Source: a virus
Taxonomy: Duplodnaviria; Heunggongvirae; Uroviricota; Caudoviricetes
Reading direction: 5' to 3' (one strand)
Virus record (IMG/VR): IMGVR_UViG_2778261154_000011
Length of the DNA stretch: 4,017 nucleotides
Shown here: piece after piece, positions 1 to 4,017 of the stretch
How positions within the stretch are numbered: position 1 is the first letter of the stretch
Layout of the letters: each line of letters begins with the position of its first letter
Position numbers and translations under genes: made by a program
Notes under the pieces: model-generated
What the model saw: the letters and a program-made list of their open reading frames with translations, nothing else
Told to the model about the DNA's origin: nothing
The model's database searches: none

Positions 1-1
1 G

Positions 2-196
2 GTGCTCGTCAAAGGAAAATGCCCTGTGCCATCCTCAGCCGAAACCTCCAGCGCCTCCGGCATGGGCAATGATGCCAGCGTCGAACTCTCTCCAGTTGCT
101 GGACGAAACGTTCTCGGTATCAGAGACGGAATCATCAGAGACCAGACAGCACTGAGAACGCTTCAGGAATACATCAGAACGCAGTGTCTGAATTAA
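2..196 (+). CDS. Rz: Rz-like i-spanin (lysis protein), C-terminal portion; 5' end lies upstream of the window
   Basis: Frame is open from the window edge to TAA at 194-196. The C-terminal residues ...KCPVPSSAETSSASGMGNDAS...ALRTLQEYIRTQCLN parallel the C-terminus of phage lambda Rz as I recall it (...CQSVREATTASGVDNAAS...LEGTQKYINEQCR). A proline-rich Rz1-like frame is nested inside it, as in lambda. Confidence 0.75.
   Translation: MLVKGKCPVPSSAETSSASGMGNDASVELSPVAGRNVLGIRDGIIRDQTALRTLQEYIRTQCLN
3..155 (+). CDS. Rz1: Rz1-like o-spanin (outer-membrane lipoprotein) embedded in a different frame of Rz; 5' end (signal peptide) upstream of the window
   Basis: Frame 3 translation is CSSKENALCHPQPKPPAPPAWAMMPASNSLQLLDETFSVSETESSETRQH with stop TGA at 153-155. 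The Cys-x-SK...Cys and proline-rich PPAPPAW core match the mature lambda Rz1 pattern as recalled (C-TSKQSVSQ-C-VKPPPPPAWIMQPP). The first Cys is probably the lipobox cysteine. Confidence 0.6.
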   Translation, partial: CSSKENALCHPQPKPPAPPAWAMMPASNSLQLLDETFSVSETESSETRQH

Positions 197-336
197 CGGA
201 GCTGGAATGAATGCTGTTTACCTGTTGCGGAAATAAAGATTGCATATTGCGACAATTTGTTGCATGTTTAAGGTGCGCTTTTCCAGAGCGTATGCGTACG
301 CACCGCATGAAGTACAACCACAGAGAGGCAACCATA

Positions 337-567
337 ATGGCAACAAGCATCCGTTTAGACGATGATTTCGTCAGTGACGTAAAGGTTCACGCTGATGCCG
401 CAAGTCGCAGCATACCAAAACAAATTGAGCACTGGGCTAAGATTGGTCGTATAGCTGAAGATAATCCAGATCTGCCATTCAGTTTTATTAGCGAAGTTCT
501 GCTGTCACAAAGCGAAATCAGACACAACAAGGTAACGCGTTATGTCAGAAGAACAGACAGGTCGTGA
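337..567 (+). CDS. Putative type II antitoxin, ribbon-helix-helix (CopG/ParD/RelB-like) fold, 76 aa
   Basis: ATG at 337 is preceded by GAGAGG (323-328) at good spacing. The N-terminus MATSIRLDDDFVSDVKVHADAASRSIPKQIEHWAKIGRIAEDN has the beta-strand plus two-helix layout typical of RHH DNA-binding antitoxins, followed by a C-terminal tail (PDLPFSFISEVLLSQSEIR...) of the kind that usually binds the toxin. It overlaps the downstream gene by 26 nt. The ORF-track start at 211 looks like an upstream extension without a ribosome-binding site. Confidence 0.6.
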   Translation: MATSIRLDDDFVSDVKVHADAASRSIPKQIEHWAKIGRIAEDNPDLPFSFISEVLLSQSEIRHNKVTRYVRRTDRS

Positions 568-871
568 AATTGATGTTTATCAGAGTCGGCGTTTCGAAAA
601 GTCTCTGAGTAAACTCCCGGAAGCGCAACTGAAAGTTGTGGAAGATGAGATCGACAGAATAATTGACAATCCTCTGTTGGGAACGCAAAAGAAAGGAGAC
701 CTCAGTTTTCTTCGTGTGCATAAATTTCAGCTGAATAATCAACAGGTGCTTCTGGGTTACAGCTGGCTTGACGATAAACTTGAGCTCTACCTCCTTAGCA
801 TCGGTCCACATGAAAATTTTTATACCGATCAGAAAAAACACCGAAAAGCTGATTTAAAACTCATCGGTTAG
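542..871 (+). CDS. Putative type II toxin of the RelE/ParE superfamily, 109 aa
   Basis: ATG at 542 has AAGG (529-532) upstream. Size, position directly downstream of and overlapping an RHH gene, and a C-terminal segment LELYLLSIGPHENFY resembling the RelE-family C-terminal beta-strand/active-site region (compare E. coli RelE ...VVFVISVGKRERSEVY, recalled) support the call. A terminator follows 21 nt downstream. Confidence 0.6.
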   Translation: MSEEQTGREIDVYQSRRFEKSLSKLPEAQLKVVEDEIDRIIDNPLLGTQKKGDLSFLRVHKFQLNNQQVLLGYSWLDDKLELYLLSIGPHENFYTDQKKHRKADLKLIG

Positions 872-891
872 TCCTGACGTCATGCATACCA

Positions 892-916
892 GCCCACGTA
901 AACGCGTGGGCTTTTT
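892..916 (+). terminator. Rho-independent terminator after the toxin gene
   Basis: GC-rich stem GCCCACG (892-898) pairs with CGTGGGC (905-911) around a 6-nt loop, immediately followed by TTTTT (912-916). Confidence 0.65.
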
Positions 917-1069
917 CATATCTGAATTTCACCGCGCACCGCAGCGCATGATAACCACCGAACCTGCCCCTTTGGAATGAGCCTTTGAGGATACCAGTTA
1001 GTGCTGGCGAGCCTCGGTGGGCTGGTTTCCTGTGCGGCAAAGGTTCATTTCAAAGAACAGGTATACGAC

Positions 1070-1567
1070 ATGAAATCATTAACCCTCTTCAATCAGCCAA
1101 TCCGTATCGGTGAAGATGGCATGATCTGCCTCACTGATATGTGGAAAGCCAGTGGTAAAAGTGAATCTGAATCTCCGTACCACTACCTGCGAAACAAGCA
1201 GACCAAAGAGTTCTTAGCCGAGCTGGAGAAAAACCACGAATCTGTGGTTTTTACTGAGCGCGGTGTACACGGTGGAACATATGGCGGGAAGTTTGTTGCT
1301 TATGATTATGCAGCATGGCTAAACCCCGGATTTAAATATGCAGCCTATAAAGTCCTGGATGACTACTTCACCGGAGAACTTCAGCATCGCAACAGCTTAA
1401 GTGCGCAGCTCAATATGAAGTGTCATGAGTTTGATCAGAAAAAAGATATGGCGAGCTTCTGTGGACAAGGGCTGGCGGCATGGCGCTATACGAAGCCAGT
1501 GTTGGTCGCTGAGATTAACTCCCTGGCTAACCAGCTGCAGATAACGATCCCCGGGCTTCCGGGATGA
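1070..1567 (+). CDS. KilA-N domain protein (phage DNA-binding/antirepressor-like N-terminal domain) with an uncharacterised C-terminal region, 165 aa
   Basis: The N-terminal half MKSLTLFNQPIRIGEDGMICLTDMWKASGKSESESPYHYLRNKQTKEFLAELEK...GGTYGGKFVAYDYAAWLNPGFKYAAYKVL fits the KilA-N (APSES-like) pattern as I recall it (conserved basic/Gly/aromatic positions, then G-T-W/Y...A...WL-P-F). ATG at 1070 places the domain at the N-terminus. The ORF-track GTG at 1001 would add 23 residues with no support. The stop TGA (1565-1567) overlaps the next ATG. Confidence 0.65.
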   Translation: MKSLTLFNQPIRIGEDGMICLTDMWKASGKSESESPYHYLRNKQTKEFLAELEKNHESVVFTERGVHGGTYGGKFVAYDYAAWLNPGFKYAAYKVLDDYFTGELQHRNSLSAQLNMKCHEFDQKKDMASFCGQGLAAWRYTKPVLVAEINSLANQLQITIPGLPG

Positions 1568-1821
1568 GTGATCGTGTCATTGAATGCGCCTCCAGAGCGG
1601 GGCGCGACTTCTCAGAGTTCATGAAAGGCGAGAAGGGCATGATGGAAGCATTGGCCTCGGTGGATGAGTTTGGCGAGCAGCTGCGCCTCAACGGCTGTGT
1701 CAATCATCACTTTGTTAGCTACATGATGCGGAACTCGATCATGCAGGCATTCATGGACATGGCAAAAGCCGAGAGGAAAGAAGAGCGCCGGCGTAAGCGA
1801 GCGGAAGCAAAAGCGAAGTAG
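1564..1821 (+). CDS. Small hypothetical protein (85 aa) with Lys/Arg/Glu-rich C-terminal tail; translationally coupled to the KilA-N gene
   Basis: ATGA overlap at 1564-1567 (start within the upstream stop). The C-terminus KAERKEERRRKRAEAKAK is strongly charged. No recognisable catalytic motif; Cys/His content is too sparse for an HNH fold. An alternative internal start at ATG 1642 is preceded by GAAGGG. Function unknown. Confidence 0.45.
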   Translation: MSDRVIECASRAGRDFSEFMKGEKGMMEALASVDEFGEQLRLNGCVNHHFVSYMMRNSIMQAFMDMAKAERKEERRRKRAEAKAK

Positions 1822-1860
1822 CCATTACAAAGCCCATCTACTGGTGGGCTTGATAATGGC
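1821..1860. repeat. Nested inverted repeat / stem-loop immediately after the small ORF stop
   Basis: Outer arms GCCATTA (1821-1827) and TAATGGC (1854-1860); inner arms AAGCCCA (1830-1836) and TGGGCTT (1845-1851); 8-nt loop. This gives a 14-bp interrupted stem. No strong T-tract follows, so it may be an RNA 3' stabiliser, a weak terminator or a protein-binding site. Confidence 0.4.
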
Positions 1861-1873
1861 TTATACCCTACAC

Positions 1874-1899
1874 GGGATAACTTAACTGATATCCCTTTT
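1874..1899 (+). terminator. Possible second hairpin followed by a T-run
   Basis: GGGATA (1874-1879) pairs with TATCCC (1890-1895) around a 10-nt loop, followed by TTTT (1896-1899). The stem is short and the loop large, so this is weak. Confidence 0.25.
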
Positions 1900-2209
1900 A
1901 ACGGATAAAGGTATTCAAGCCTGACACATCATGCGCTGTATCGTCGCTGTATTCCCGCATTAACCATGACCGTAGCCCGACGGGGAACTCCTTCTGCGCG
2001 AGTGTGCGGGAATAATCAAAAACGATGCACACCGGGTTTTTACCGCGTTTATGGTTCGCGGGTTTGTCCCTCATGCTCGCCAGTCCTGTGCGGGGGTGGA
2101 AGAAACAGGACACTTACACTGATTCTTGTGGGTACGATGCTATTCCTTTCTGGATTATCCCGATGTCATTCATGCAGGGCGCTGTATCAGACGTTCGTCA
2201 TGGCTGTCA

Positions 2210-2290
2210 GGCTGACGGGTCCTCCCGGTGGGGTGGCCTGCCACGGGGCGGGAGCGGCGCAGAATTTCACTATTTATGAAAATTTTTCGG
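2210..2290. other. cos site, cosN-proximal block (phage DNA packaging/cleavage site); predicted cosN about 2246-2257
   Basis: Window sequence GACGGGTCCTCCCGGTG...CCACG GGGCGGGAGCGG CGCAGAATTTCACTATTTATGAAAATTTTTCGG aligns with the lambda genome ends as I recall them (right end ...GACGGGTCCTTTCCGGTGATCCGACAGGTTACG joined to left end GGGCGGCGACCT CGCGGGTTTTCGCTATTTATGAAAATTTTCCGG). The block lies about 200 bp upstream of the Nu1-like start, as in lambda. The 12-mer at the cosN position shares only the first 6 nt with lambda. Confidence 0.6.
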
Positions 2291-2295
2291 AAACC

Positions 2296-2392
2296 ATGTC
2301 CGGTTTCTCTGAAGGTTAACCATTTGAAAAATATAGAAATGTGCTTTCTGCGAACCGGACATGCGCAAAAATTGAACACTCAAACCGGACAT
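2296..2392. repeat. cosB-like array: three copies of the 10-mer AACCGGACAT (one inverted, two direct), candidate small-terminase binding sites
   Basis: ATGTCCGGTT at 2296-2305 is the reverse complement of AACCGGACAT, which occurs exactly at 2353-2362 and 2383-2392. The direct copies are 30 bp apart. Position (between cosN and the Nu1-like gene) and arrangement (one inverted element, spacer with IHF-like site, two further elements) mimic lambda R3-I1-R2-R1. Confidence 0.5.
2317..2329 (-). promoter_or_regulatory. IHF-like binding site between the inverted and direct cosB elements
   Basis: The minus strand reads TTTCAAATGGTTA, matching the IHF consensus WATCAANNNNTTR with one mismatch, next to an A-rich tract (GAAAAATATAGAAAT). 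Confidence 0.3.
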
Positions 2393-2470
2393 ATATGCCG
2401 CGTTTCATAAAGTTGTTCGCAAGATGCATGTTTAAAACGCATGAGGGGAGATTTTTTGGCGAGGTGAACA

Positions 2471-2980
2471 GTGGCTACTCAGACTGAAGTTGCCAGGCAT
2501 TTGAGTCTGACCGATCGCCAGCTTCGCAGATTACAGAAACTGCCGGGTGCCCCGGTTTCGAACAAGCGAGGACAACTGGATCTGGATGCCTGGCGTGATT
2601 TTTACATATCGTATCTGAGAAGAAGTAAAAACGATGTGCCTGATGGTGATCCGGAAGAGGATTATGAAGAGAAACTACTCATTGCGAGATGGGAACTGAC
2701 CGCAGAACAGGCTGTCGCACAGCAGTTAAAAAATCAGGTGTCAAAAGGAAATCTTATTGATAGCGGATTTTGTATTTTTGCCCTTAGTAAGCTGGCGATG
2801 GCTTTATCCAGTACGCTTGACTCCATTCCTTTGTCCATGCAACGACAGTTCCCGGATTTAACGCCGCGTCATATTGATCATCTGAAAATCCTTATTGCTA
2901 AGGGAGCGAATCAGTGCGCGCGTGCGGGGGATAAATTACCGGATTTACTCGATGAATATATCAGAACAACAACTGAGTAA
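2471..2980 (+). CDS. nu1: Terminase small subunit, lambda Nu1-like, 169 aa
   Basis: GTG start at 2471 with GAGGTG (2461-2466) upstream and an in-frame TGA just before it. The C-terminal two-thirds are clearly similar to lambda Nu1 as recalled (window ...SGFCIFALSKLAMALSSTLDSIPLSMQRQFPDLTPRHIDHL...LPDLLDEYI versus lambda ...TAFCTFVLSRIAGEIASILDGLPLSVQRRFPELENRHVDFL...IPGLLSEYI). The N-terminal HTH region is diverged. It overlaps the large-subunit start by 29 nt, as in lambda. Confidence 0.9.
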   Translation: MATQTEVARHLSLTDRQLRRLQKLPGAPVSNKRGQLDLDAWRDFYISYLRRSKNDVPDGDPEEDYEEKLLIARWELTAEQAVAQQLKNQVSKGNLIDSGFCIFALSKLAMALSSTLDSIPLSMQRQFPDLTPRHIDHLKILIAKGANQCARAGDKLPDLLDEYIRTTTE

Positions 2981-3914
2981 TATGATGGTGGCAGTCACTA
3001 TCGCACTGCAGCCACTGGTCAGGGTATTGCCGGTGACGGCTGTAGAATGGGCCGATCAAAATTATTACCTGCCTAAAGAATCGTCATACGGTGAGGGGGA
3101 ATGGAAAACGCTGCCGTTTCAGGTCGCCATCATGAACTGCATGGGCAATGACGAGATTCGTACAGTTAACCTGATTAAATCTGCCCGTGTTGGTTATACA
3201 AAAATGGTGCTTGGTGTGATCGGGTATTTTATTGAGCACAAATCCCGCAACACTCTTCTTTTTCAGCCGACGGACTCAGCTGCTGAAGATTTTATGAAGT
3301 CTCACGTGGAAGCAACAATTCGTGATGTTCCTTGCCTGAAAAAACTTTCTCCCTGGCTGGGCCGGAAACACCGGGATAATACGCTCACACTGAAGCGTTT
3401 TTCCTCTGGTGTGGGGTTCTGGTGTTTGGGTGGTGCTGCTGCCAAAAACTACCGTGAAAAATCTGTCGATGTGGTCTGCTATGACGAACTCTCCTCGTTT
3501 GAACCGGATGTGGAAAAAGAAGGTTCGCCAACACTGCTTGGCGATAAACGTATTGAAGGTTCGGTATGGCCAAAATCCATACGCGGTTCAACGCCAAAAA
3601 TCAAAGGCTCCTGCCAGATTGAAAAAGCCGCGAATGAATCTGCACATTTCATGCGGTTTTATGTTCCTTGCCCTCATTGCGGGGAGGAGCAGTATCTGAA
3701 ATTTGGCGATGATGCGACGCCGTTTGGCCTGAAATGGGAGAAAGGCAAACCGGAAACGGTGTATTACCTGTGTGAACATAATGGTTGCGTGATCCGTCAG
3801 TCTGAACTTGATCAGACCGGGGGGCGCTGGATTTGTGACAATACCGGGATGTGGACGCGTGACGGCCTGACATTTTACAGCGTCGGTGATGAGGAGATAC
3901 CCCATAAGCGCTAA
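2952..3914 (+). pseudogene. A: Terminase large subunit (lambda gpA-like), N-terminal ATPase fragment of 320 aa; nuclease and portal-binding regions absent
   Basis: From ATG 2952 (MNISEQQLSNMM...) the product is near-collinear with lambda gpA as recalled (TAVEWADQNYYLPKES, KSARVGYTKM Walker-A-like, VVCYDEL Walker-B-like, GDKRIEGSVWPKSIRGSTPK, FMRFYVPCPHCGEEQYLKFGD, YYLCEHNGCVIRQSELD). Similarity ends at ...SVGDEEIPHKR followed by TAA at 3912-3914, whereas lambda gpA is about 640 aa. No downstream frame in the remaining 100 nt continues gpA. The ORF-track start at 2895 is an upstream extension. Confidence 0.8.
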
Positions 3915-4017
3915 CTTAAGGGTTGAACCATCTGAAGAATGCGACGCCTCGGTGCCTCGTTAAGACGATGCCTCGCGTTCTTCAATTGCGTTTTGTAGGC
4001 TGTCAGGGATACTGTCC

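What the first reader, a model, noticed from the sequence alone, without database searches (positions are those of the whole stretch)
2210..2470. cos site with lambda-like cosN flank but a different cosB repeat set matching a diverged Nu1 DNA-binding domain
The cosN-proximal sequence, including the TCACTATTTATGAAAATTTTTCGG block, is close to lambda, but the region where lambda has its R sites instead contains three exact copies of AACCGGACAT (one inverted at 2296-2305, two direct at 2353-2362 and 2383-2392) with an IHF-like site between the inverted and direct copies. The Nu1-like protein has a conserved C-terminal half but a diverged N-terminal helix-turn-helix region (MATQTEVARHLSLTDRQLRRLQKL...). 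Together these suggest a packaging specificity different from lambda, comparable to the known lambda versus phage 21 cosB/terminase specificity difference. The 12-mer at the cosN position also differs from lambda in its second half.
Basis: partly seen in the sequence, partly recalled or inferred. Interest (0 to 1): 0.5.

Follow-up and report, generated by a model that had tools for sequence, protein, structure and literature searches.

The report
Lambda-type cos site, new specificity class
This is the DNA-packaging start site (cos) of a lambda-like E. coli prophage, whose three 10-bp repeats and matching small-terminase DNA-binding domain form a common but apparently unstudied recognition pair built like those of phages lambda and 21; it is an ordinary kind of element with a new specificity.

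Summary
AACCGGACAT occurs exactly three times, at 2296-2305(-), 2353-2362(+) and 2383-2392(+), downstream of a lambda-like cosQ/cosN/I2 block and upstream of a Nu1-type small terminase (TerS, 2471-2980).

With the cohesive end starting at 2246 (bp 1), the repeats lie at bp 51-60, 108-117 and 138-147. The first two are the positions of lambda and phage 21 R3 and R2. A 12/13 IHF match lies between them, at I1's position.

- **Conservation:** In 47 distinct related cos sequences the repeats are near-invariant while the spacers vary.
- **Covariation:** Across Escherichia, Salmonella, Klebsiella and Enterobacter the repeat sequence changes with the predicted recognition helix. TDRQLRR goes with ATGTCCGGTT, TERQLRN-like helices with ATTTCCGGTT, and TERWLRD with ACTTCCGGTT.
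- **Natural swap:** A protein with an N15-type domain on the same C-terminal half carries N15-type repeats.

I add four refinements:

- R1 is oriented opposite to lambda's R1.
- cosQ and cosN come from an mEp460-type phage lineage.
- This copy is dead, because IS421 interrupts the large terminase.
- The class is widespread and includes the isolated PhiR12 phages.

It is a new member of a known kind, of modest interest.

The parts
2217..2223 (+). cosQ heptamer GGGTCCT, the packaging-termination signal. It lies 22 nt before the top-strand nick position, against 23 nt in lambda.
   Evidence: Identical heptamer at the same place in lambda, 21, Gifsy-1, PhiR12_1 and PhiR40_1. cosQ is described as highly conserved in PMC4669245.
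2244..2259 (.). cosN: the 12-bp cohesive-end sequence GGGCGGGAGCGG (2246-2257) with its conserved 5'-CG flanks. Inferred nicks are after 2245 on the top strand and after 2257 on the bottom strand.
   Evidence: Alignment with lambda, 21, phi80, N15 and Gifsy-1. The record of phage Tritos starts with GGGCGGGAGCGT and ends at the base equivalent to window 2245. Nicking itself was not tested.
1900..2264 (.). Left arm of cos, including cosQ and 11 of the 12 cosN bases. It is shared at about 96-98% identity with mEp460, PhiR40_1, 569R4 and Tritos-type phages.
   Evidence: Those phages have a DUF1441 TerS and a TerL only 26% identical to the window lineage's TerL.
2265..2290 (+). Conserved spacer between cosN and R3 (the I2 region of lambda and 21): TTTCACTATTTATGAAAATTTTTCGG, bp 20-45.
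   Evidence: Near-identical block in lambda, 21, phi80, N15, Gifsy-1 and all relatives. The phage 21 record annotates an I2 IHF site here.
2294..2310 (+). R3-equivalent TerS site. The core ATGTCCGGTT is 2296-2305 (bp 51-60); the invariant block is CCATGTCCGGTTTCTCT.
   Evidence: Same position as lambda and 21 R3 (bp 50-65; PMC9026076). Invariant in 47 distinct relatives. At bp 51-52 in every relative examined.
2317..2329 (-). IHF-like site, I1-equivalent: TTTCAAATGGTTA, 12/13 to WATCAANNNNTTR, followed on the + strand by an A/T-rich tract to about 2340.
   Evidence: It has the position of the annotated I1 of phage 21 (bp 72-86). By my reading of the sequences, relatives L093, L095, L099 and L101 carry perfect matches at the same place. 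Not above chance as a window-wide count.
2353..2362 (+). R2-equivalent TerS site AACCGGACAT (bp 108-117), inverted relative to R3.
   Evidence: Lambda R2 is at bp 105-120 and phage 21 R2 at bp 107-122. At bp 108-109 in all relatives.
2383..2392 (+). R1-equivalent accessory site AACCGGACAT (bp 138-147). It has the same orientation as R2 and starts 30 bp after it.
   Evidence: Present at bp 138 in PhiR12_1 and Enterobacter (L103) and at bp 151 in Klebsiella (L095). Absent in the short cosB of L093, L097, L099, L101 and L102.
2404..2440 (.). Conserved block AAAGTTGTTCGCAAGATGCATGTTTAAAAC just upstream of the TerS start. Its function is unknown.
   Evidence: Also present upstream of the unrelated DUF1441 TerS of PhiR40_1 and 569R4 and in L029 and L033, but not in PhiR12-type cos. 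No promoter-like site was found.
2471..2980 (+). Small terminase subunit (TerS, Nu1-like), 169 aa, GTG start after the Shine-Dalgarno-like GAGGTGA (2461-2467). A predicted winged helix-turn-helix covers aa 1-50, with the putative recognition helix at aa 15-22. The Nu1-type C-terminal half covers aa 71-150.
   Evidence: Pfam PF07471 over aa 71-150 only. PHROG 57, 'terminase small subunit', over the full length. AlphaFold2 model of aa 1-51 with pLDDT 90.8. Structural neighbours are other TerS DNA-binding domains, RppC, lambda gpNu1 (1J9I) and MerR-type domains.
2952..3903 (+). Large terminase subunit (gpA-type TerL), N-terminal 317 aa only. It overlaps the TerS end by 29 nt.
   Evidence: Pfam GpA_ATPase, E = 4.8e-56. 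The intact 642-aa gene in CFSAN029787 is 66% identical to lambda gpA and 92% to PhiR12_1 TerL.
3904..4017 (.). End of an IS4-family IS421 copy that truncates TerL.
   Evidence: The window diverges from the intact prophage after 3903 and continues as the sequence that flanks an IS421 transposase gene in L106.

Best explanation
Window 2217-2470 is the cos site of a lambda-like prophage, followed by its terminase genes. The inferred mechanism follows the lambda and phage 21 paradigm.

1. A dimer of the TerS winged-helix domain binds the inverted pair R3' (2296-2305) and R2' (2353-2362).
2. An IHF-induced bend at 2317-2329 brings these two sites together.
3. R1' (2383-2392) acts as an accessory site in helical phase with R2'.
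4. Bound TerS positions the gpA-type TerL to nick cosN, giving a 12-nt 5' cohesive end, GGGCGGGAGCGG.
5. cosQ (2217-2223) serves termination.

The R-site sequence (ATGTCCGGTT) and the TerS DNA-binding domain (MATQTEVARHLSLTDRQLRRLQKL...) together form a specificity class distinct from lambda, 21 and N15/Monarch.

Shown here: the anatomy, the positions, the conservation, the covariation between helix and site, and the predicted fold. Inferred: binding, bending, nicking and exclusivity of packaging.

This particular copy cannot package itself, because IS421 truncates TerL. Its cos could still be used in trans.
For: - Exact repeats, unlikely by chance.
- In-register positions: R3' at bp 51-60 and R2' at bp 108-117, against lambda 50-65 and 105-120 and phage 21 50-65 and 107-122. 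The IHF match is at bp 72-84, against phage 21 I1 at 72-86 (PMC9026076).
- cosQ, the CG nick flanks, the GGGCGG left half and the I2 spacer are all conserved.
- In 47 distinct cos sequences carrying this TerS, the R sites are invariant or nearly so while the spacers vary.
- Between genera the spacers are unalignable, yet R3 and R2 stay at bp 51 and 108.
- Covariation: helix TDRQLRR with ATGTCCGGTT (E. coli, PhiR12_1, Salmonella L102, Enterobacter L103); TERQLRN, TARRVRD, SERQFRN and TERRLRD with ATTTCCGGTT; TERWLRD with ACTTCCGGTT.
- More distant TerS with this N-terminal domain keep a TCCGGTT motif just upstream of the gene: 2-10 bp before the start codon in Pseudomonas phage LPPA33 and L104, and about 60 bp before it in L092.
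- Natural swap: P0052/L105 has an N15-type DNA-binding domain on a window-type C-terminal half and carries GGTTGTTGTT repeats.
- Isolated phages PhiR12_1 to _5 carry the same TerS (93.5% identity) and the same three sites.
- The AlphaFold2 model of aa 1-51 (pLDDT 90.8) is helix-turn-helix plus wing plus a third helix. Its nearest structures are TerS DNA-binding domains 7lw0/7lwr (TM 0.69-0.73), RppC 6hlk, gpNu1 1j9i (TM 0.67) and MerR-type domains.
- A weak in-register profile match to the lambda-class domain.
Against: - No binding, bending or cleavage data exist for this class, and I found no paper on it.
- The Foldseek E-values are not significant (0.15-1), and the hhalign probability is only 23%.
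- The IHF match count is not above chance for the window as a whole.
- cosB and the DNA-binding domain are adjacent and co-inherited. Part of the covariation could therefore reflect linkage, and it rests on only three site types.
- R1' is oriented opposite to R1 of lambda, 21 and phi80.
- This exact cos allele (mEp460-type cosN joined to this cosB) is rare, in 9 of 5426 complete E. coli genomes, so its cleavability by this TerL is unproven.
- TerL in the window is truncated by IS421.
Confidence: 0.8

Rival explanations
1. The architecture is right, but this particular hybrid cos allele (mEp460-type cosQ/cosN joined to PhiR12-type cosB) is a non-functional recombination scar in decaying prophages. 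Its TerL cannot cleave GGGCGGGAGCGG efficiently.
For: - Only 9 of 5426 complete E. coli genomes carry the full allele, while most relatives have the canonical GGGCGGCGACCT.
- The TerL of this lineage is 92% identical to PhiR12 TerL, whose cosN is canonical, and only 26% identical to the mEp460-type TerL.
- The window's TerL is truncated by IS421, and the O121 copy's TerL is annotated as incomplete.
Against: - The same allele occurs with different upstream cassettes: ParD/ParE/KilA-N in one context and DUF4406 in RMDEC332. It is linked to an intact 642-aa TerL and full head genes in CFSAN029787.
- Relatives with this cosB use at least six different cosN right halves.
- Right-half (bp 7-12) variation is known to be tolerated, because cosB-anchored TerL nicks the bottom strand with little sequence dependence (PMC4669245).
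- The CG flanks, the left half and cosQ are intact.
Confidence: 0.15
2. The repeats are the R sites, but the specificity is not new. The system shares phage 21 specificity, because the cores are nearly the same (CATGTCGG against CATGTCCGG).
For: - The phage 21 sites R3 CGTGTCGG, R2 (reverse complement) TCATGTCGGA and R1 TCATGTCGGG resemble CATGTCCGGTT and lie at the same positions.
- N15 terminase is known to package lambda DNA despite different sites (PMC4669245).
Against: - The one extra base shifts half of the site out of register.
- The conserved part in this class is TCCGGTT, which phage 21 lacks.
- The recognition helices differ (21 DPRTIERWQSQG against TDRQLRRLQKLP), and the N-terminal domains do not align in tblastn or Pfam.
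Confidence: 0.07
3. The 10-mers are operators for some other DNA-binding protein (a late-gene or moron regulator, or a satellite Rpp-like protein) rather than TerS sites.
For: Binding is untested. A conserved block of unknown role (2404-2440) lies next to them.
Against: - No promoter-like site lies in 1800-2600.
- The sites keep the exact R3 and R2 coordinates relative to cosN in all relatives, and they change with the TerS helix and with the type of TerS DNA-binding domain.
- No other DNA-binding gene is consistently linked; the upstream cassettes differ.
Confidence: 0.03

Closest known systems
Phage 21 cos / gp1 (TerS-21) packaging specificity
   Same: - cosQ, the cosN left half, the CG flanks and the I2 spacer (TCACTATTTATGAAAATTTTTC) are near-identical.
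- R3 lies at bp 50-65, I1 at about bp 72-86, and R2 is inverted at bp 107-122.
- The R core is similar: CATGTCGG against CATGTCCGG.
[quoted passage not shown]
   Different: - The core is one base longer and continues as GGTT.
- R1 is in R2's orientation at bp 138-147 rather than in R3's orientation at bp 150-165.
- The TerS N-terminal 70 aa do not align with gp1.
- cosN right half is GAGCGG rather than CGACCT.
Phage lambda cos (cosQ-cosN-I2-R3-I1-R2-R1) and gpNu1
   Same: - Same order and spacing of the sub-sites.
- R3' matches lambda R3 at 9 of 16 in-register positions (my count), including the TCCG centre.
- The TerS C-terminal half is about 44% identical.
- TerL is 66% identical.
- The predicted winged-helix domain resembles 1J9I (TM 0.67).
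   Different: - The R sites differ at bp 51, 53, 58, 60 and 62-64. Position 58 is one of the positions critical for lambda (PMC9026076).
- R1 orientation differs.
- The DNA-binding domain is not detected by the Pfam Nu1 model.
- The cohesive end differs at bp 7, 8, 9, 11 and 12.
N15 / Monarch packaging specificity
   Same: - Lambda-like cos with natural right-half cosN variation; N15 also has G at bp 12 followed by CGCAGA.
- DNA-binding domain and cosB move as one module: P0052/L105 joins an N15-type domain and Monarch-like repeats to the window-type C-terminal half.
   Different: - The N15-type R sequence is GGTTGTTGTT and its domain begins MAVLLNKSDMASS...; neither is present in the window.
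- N15 itself has a single R3 and no IHF site (PMC4669245).
Escherichia phages PhiR12_1 to PhiR12_5 (GenBank PV340549-PV340554)
   Same: TerS is 93.5% identical. The same three sites lie at bp 51, 108 and 138, with the same IHF-like site. TerL is 92% identical. These are the only records in the phage collection that carry this class.
   Different: They have the canonical lambda cosN GGGCGGCGACCT and a lambda-like left arm. They lack the 2404-2440 block. I found no published analysis of their cos.

Membership tests
lambda-like cos site (cosQ-cosN-cosB) | cosQ heptamer GGGTCCT about 20 bp upstream of cosN | tested here: met
   GGGTCCT at 2217-2223, 22 nt before the inferred nick (23 nt in lambda).
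lambda-like cos site (cosQ-cosN-cosB) | cosN sequence: 12-bp cohesive-end sequence with the GGGCGG left half and 5'-CG flanks at both nick positions | tested here: met
   CACG|GGGCGGGAGCGG|CGCA at 2242-2261. The right half differs at 5 of 6 positions, which is within the known natural variation (PMC4669245).
lambda-like cos site (cosQ-cosN-cosB) | Terminase actually nicks there and produces 12-nt 5' overhangs | not testable with these tools
   The only indirect support is that the Tritos record begins and ends at the equivalent nick position.
lambda-like cos site (cosQ-cosN-cosB) | R3 at a fixed distance (about bp 50-65) from cosN, after the conserved I2 spacer | tested here: met
   The core is at bp 51-60 and the spacer is near-identical to that of 21 and lambda. 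The site is at bp 51-52 in all relatives.
lambda-like cos site (cosQ-cosN-cosB) | R2 inverted relative to R3, about 55-57 bp away, with an IHF site (I1) between them | tested here: met
   R2' lies at bp 108-117 and is inverted. The IHF match is 12/13 at bp 72-84, and perfect in four relatives by my reading. IHF binding itself was not tested.
lambda-like cos site (cosQ-cosN-cosB) | R1 in the same orientation as R3 (R2 opposite to both) | tested here: not met
   R1' (bp 138-147) is a direct repeat of R2'. The same holds in PhiR12_1, Enterobacter L103 and Klebsiella L095. The lambda rule is stated in PMC9026076.
lambda-like cos site (cosQ-cosN-cosB) | TerS binds the R sequences specifically | not testable with these tools
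   Indirect only: conservation, covariation between helix and site, and the natural domain swap.
Nu1-type small terminase (Pfam PF07471 Phage_Nu1) | C-terminal oligomerisation and TerL-binding half matches the family model | tested here: met
   E = 4.8e-18, 65.7 bits (cut-off 30), aa 71-150 against profile positions 84-163.
Nu1-type small terminase (Pfam PF07471 Phage_Nu1) | N-terminal Nu1-type winged helix-turn-helix (profile positions 1-83; PDB 1J9I) | tested here: inconclusive
   No match by Pfam, PDB sequence search or tblastn. The AlphaFold2 model (pLDDT 90.8) has the winged-helix topology, with TM 0.67 to 1J9I at a non-significant E-value. The hhalign match is in register, with probability 23%.
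Nu1-type small terminase (Pfam PF07471 Phage_Nu1) | Gene lies directly after cos and overlaps the start of a gpA-type TerL | tested here: met
   TerS 2471-2980 and TerL from 2952; GpA_ATPase E = 4.8e-56.
phage 21 packaging specificity | R core CATGTCGG and gp1 recognition helix DPRTIERWQSQG | tested here: not met
   The core is CATGTCCGGTT and the helix is TDRQLRRLQKLP.
N15/Monarch packaging specificity | R sequence GGTTGTTGTT and an N15-type DNA-binding domain (MAVLLNKSDMASS...) | tested here: not met
   Neither is present in the window. Both are present together in L105/P0052.

The most novel reading that the evidence does not exclude
The MATQ-type TerS and its TCCGGTT-core R sites form a large, unstudied packaging-specificity family with internal sub-specificities (ATG, ATT and ACT variants tracking helix residues 15-20). 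The family offers a natural read-out code for TerS-DNA recognition. The window's cos further suggests that a lambda-type TerS/TerL pair can operate on a cosQ/cosN module taken from phages with an unrelated (DUF1441) TerS and a TerL only 26% identical. cos would then act as a cross-family recombination joint and a possible route to cross-packaging.
Probability: 0.25. Interest if true: 0.5.

Novelty: new member of a known kind. Interest (0 to 1): 0.3.

Why it matters
Packaging specificity decides which co-resident prophages, satellites and chromosomal segments a lambdoid phage can package. It therefore bears on gene transfer among pathogenic E. coli.

Only the lambda, 21 and N15 specificities have been analysed genetically (PMC4669245, PMC9026076). 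The class described here has these properties:

- A megablast query spanning R3' to the end of the DNA-binding domain finds a match in 1757 of 5426 complete E. coli genomes, mostly at 90-95% identity. Some of these matches are short pieces only.
- Its DNA-binding domain profile finds 247 clusters at 50% identity.
- It occurs in isolated phages, PhiR12.

The natural covariation between helix and site, and the domain swap with N15-type modules, give ready-made predictions for mutational tests of how TerS reads DNA. The mechanism itself is expected to be the known one, so the gain is breadth rather than a new principle.

Tried and rejected
- **Genome scan with the N-terminal profile.** It confirmed only one locus, a MAG. 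I therefore fetched distant relatives one by one with the look-up of encoding contigs.
- **Full-text search for the 10-mers and their complements.** Only unrelated papers came back. Searches for cosB, TerS and PhiR12 found no description of this class.
- **Foldseek with the full-length TerS model (pTM 0.31).** No significant hit. The isolated domain model was used instead.
- **PDB sequence search and NCBIfam.** Nothing for the N-terminal domain.
- **Rfam, tRNA and promoter scans.** Nothing in the cos region, so an RNA or promoter reading of the repeats has no support. The 'terminator-like' hit at 2287-2303 is simply R3' next to its T-rich flank.
- **Did cosN type follow the TerL nuclease domain?** It does not. 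The nuclease region is 96% identical to that of PhiR12 TerL, which uses the canonical cosN.
- **Were the three substitutions around the bottom-strand nick (G12, A16, A19) special?** No. N15 and phi80 carry similar variants.

Full report
**What the window is.** Window 1-3903 is 100% identical to a lambdoid prophage in several human E. coli isolates, for example CFSAN029787. In that genome the order is lysis genes, a ParD/ParE-like toxin-antitoxin pair, a KilA-N gene, cos, the small and large terminase genes, and then lambda-type head and tail genes. In the window the large terminase gene (from 2952) is cut after 3903 by the end of an IS421 element.

**Checking the observation.**
- AACCGGACAT occurs exactly three times, at 2296-2305 (-), 2353-2362 (+) and 2383-2392 (+), and nowhere else in the window.
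- Only 4 of 5000 dinucleotide-preserving shuffles of 2200-2470 contained any 10-mer three times.
- TerS has a conserved C-terminal half and a divergent N-terminal part. Pfam Phage_Nu1 matches aa 71-150 only. tblastn aligns lambda, 21, N15 and phi80 only from aa 64-73 onward.

**Anatomy in lambda coordinates.** I aligned the region with lambda, 21, phi80, N15 and Gifsy-1. This places the first base of the cohesive end at 2246.

| Element | Window | bp from cohesive end | Comparison |
|---|---|---|---|
| cosQ GGGTCCT | 2217-2223 | upstream | same heptamer in all phages compared |
| cosN with CG flanks | 2244-2259 | -2 to 14 | both CG flanks kept |
| I2 spacer | 2265-2290 | 20-45 | near-identical to phage 21 |
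| R3' | 2296-2305 | 51-60 | lambda and 21 R3: 50-65 |
| IHF match | 2317-2329 | 72-84 | phage 21 I1: 72-86 |
| R2' | 2353-2362 | 108-117 | lambda R2: 105-120; 21 R2: 107-122 |
| R1' | 2383-2392 | 138-147 | lambda R1: 154-169; 21 R1: 150-165 |

The lambda R3 range is as stated in PMC9026076; the other lambda coordinates are my reading. The phage 21 sites are annotated in M81255. R3' and R2' are inverted relative to each other, as the lambda model of a TerS dimer bridging an IHF bend requires (PMC9026076).

R3' is an in-register relative of lambda R3, CATGTCCGGTTTCTCT against CGTTTCCGTTCTTCTT, with 9 of 16 positions the same (my count). It also resembles the phage 21 core, CATGTCGG. One feature differs from lambda, 21 and phi80: R1' is a direct repeat of R2', 30 bp downstream, not a copy in R3's orientation.

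**Do the repeats matter?** About 80 IMG/VR loci encode this TerS at 93-99% identity. All of those with upstream sequence carry the three sites. In 47 distinct sequences the block CCATGTCCGGTTTCTCT is invariant, R2' and R1' are nearly so, and the spacers vary. The isolated phages PhiR12_1 to _5 have the same arrangement.

I then fetched more distant relatives with 59-78% identical TerS from Escherichia, Klebsiella, Salmonella and Enterobacter. Their spacers are not alignable with the window. Yet an R3 site sits at bp 51-52 and an inverted R2 at bp 108-109 in every one. R1 is present only in some, always in R2's orientation, at 30 or 42 bp from R2.

The site sequence tracks the predicted recognition helix:

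| Recognition helix | R-site core | Where seen |
|---|---|---|
| TDRQLRR | ATGTCCGGTT | four lineages in three genera |
| TERQLRN, TARRVRD, SERQFRN, TERRLRD | ATTTCCGGTT | L095, L097, L099, L101 |
| TERWLRD | ACTTCCGGTT | L093 |

Pseudomonas phage LPPA33 (43% identical TerS) and one distant metagenomic relative (L104) keep GTTTCCGGTTCCGGTT 2-10 bp before the TerS start codon; a MAG relative (L092) has GGTTCCGGTTCC about 60 bp before it.

There is also a natural control. P0052/L105 has an N15-type DNA-binding domain fused to a C-terminal half almost identical to the window's. Its cosB carries N15/Monarch-type GGTTGTTGTT repeats instead. The repeats therefore follow the DNA-binding domain, not the rest of the terminase.

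**The DNA-binding domain.**
- No sequence method links aa 1-70 to the lambda gpNu1 domain.
- A profile-profile comparison gives only a weak, in-register match.
- An AlphaFold2 model of aa 1-51 is confident (pLDDT 90.8). It shows helix 4-10, helix 15-22, a wing, and helix 38-50.
- Its nearest solved structures are other phage TerS DNA-binding domains (7lw0 and 7lwr, TM 0.69-0.73), RppC (6hlk), lambda gpNu1 (1j9i, TM 0.67) and MerR-type winged helices. The E-values are not significant for so small a domain.
- PHROGs places the whole protein in phrog_57, 'terminase small subunit'.
- A profile of the domain finds 247 clusters at 50% identity, nearly all with the domain at the N-terminus of 150-200-aa proteins.

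**The unusual cosN.**
- Window 1900-2264 includes cosQ and 11 of the 12 cohesive-end bases. It is 96-98% identical to mEp460, PhiR40_1, 569R4 and Tritos-type phages.
- Those phages have an unrelated DUF1441 small terminase and a TerL only 26% identical.
- The Tritos record starts with GGGCGGGAGCGT and ends at the base equivalent to 2245.
- From 2265 onward the window follows the PhiR12 type. Its TerL is 92% identical to PhiR12 TerL (96% in the nuclease region), and PhiR12's own cosN is canonical.

The cos is therefore a recombinant whose junction lies at the bottom-strand nick side of cosN. This exact allele is in 9 of 5426 complete E. coli genomes. It occurs with at least two different upstream cassettes and with an intact TerL in some genomes.

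Relatives with this cosB use at least six other cosN right halves. The literature states that bp 7-12 vary naturally while cosQ and the CG flanks do not (PMC4669245). I therefore regard the allele as probably functional, but this is unproven.

**Comparison with what is known.** The system works like the lambda and phage 21 cosB/TerS pair. It passes every sequence-level membership test for a lambda-like cos except R1 orientation. It is neither the 21 nor the N15/Monarch specificity. I found no publication on this class.

It is common. A megablast query spanning R3' to the end of the DNA-binding domain finds a match in 1757 of 5426 complete E. coli genomes, mostly at 90-95% identity, though some matches are short pieces only.

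**Verdict.** It is a further, apparently uncharacterised specificity class of a well-understood system: a new member of a known kind. Interest is modest (0.3). The value lies in the natural covariation between helix and site, the flipped R1, and the cross-lineage cosN junction.

Noticed in passing
window 3904-4017 (junction at 3903/3904): The end of an IS4-family IS421 copy interrupts the large terminase gene after codon 317. The intact prophage in CFSAN029787 continues with TerL sequence at this point. This prophage copy is therefore packaging-defective.
   Followed up: yes
window 1900-2264: The left arm of cos, with cosQ and 11 of the 12 cosN bases, is about 97% identical to mEp460, PhiR40_1, 569R4 and Tritos phages. 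These use a DUF1441 small terminase and a TerL only 26% identical. The cos is a recombinant joined at cosN.
   Followed up: yes
window 2404-2440: The block AAAGTTGTTCGCAAGATGCATGTTTAAAAC just upstream of the TerS start also lies upstream of the unrelated DUF1441 TerS genes of PhiR40_1 and 569R4. It is absent from PhiR12-type cos. No promoter, IHF or Rfam match explains it.
   Followed up: partly
window 337-567 and 542-871: A ParD-like antitoxin and a ParE-like toxin pair (Pfam PF11903 and PF15781) sit as a cassette between the lysis genes and cos. RMDEC332 has a DUF4406 gene there instead, with the same cos.
   Followed up: partly
window 1070-1567 and 1564-1821: A KilA-N/ORF11CD3 domain protein is followed by an 85-aa ORF with no Pfam match. 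The ORF listing start at 1001 is probably too far upstream, since RefSeq annotates the ATG at 1070.
   Followed up: no
L105 (E. coli CP028741, TerS at 1001-1507): A natural chimeric TerS (P0052) has an N15-type DNA-binding domain joined to a C-terminal half nearly identical to the window's. Its cosB is Monarch-like, with GGTTGTTGTT repeats. This shows modular exchange of cosB together with the DNA-binding domain.
   Followed up: partly
L110 1-170 (Pseudomonas phage LPPA33), L104, L092: Distant TerS with the same N-terminal domain have a simple site, GTTTCCGGTTCCGGTT (two overlapping TCCGGTT cores), 2-10 bp before the start codon in L110 and L104, and GGTTCCGGTTCC about 60 bp before it in L092. 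They have no R2 or R1. This resembles the simple cosB of N15.
   Followed up: partly
L001 5682-5992: The intact prophage in CFSAN029787 carries four tRNA genes (Ile, Arg, Thr, Gly) between the Q antiterminator gene and the holin gene.
   Followed up: no
NZ_CP011416.1 14900-15375 versus 386497-390398: CFSAN029787 holds the same cos allele and TerS 5' region at two distant chromosomal places. Two prophages with identical packaging signals therefore appear to reside in one genome.
   Followed up: no
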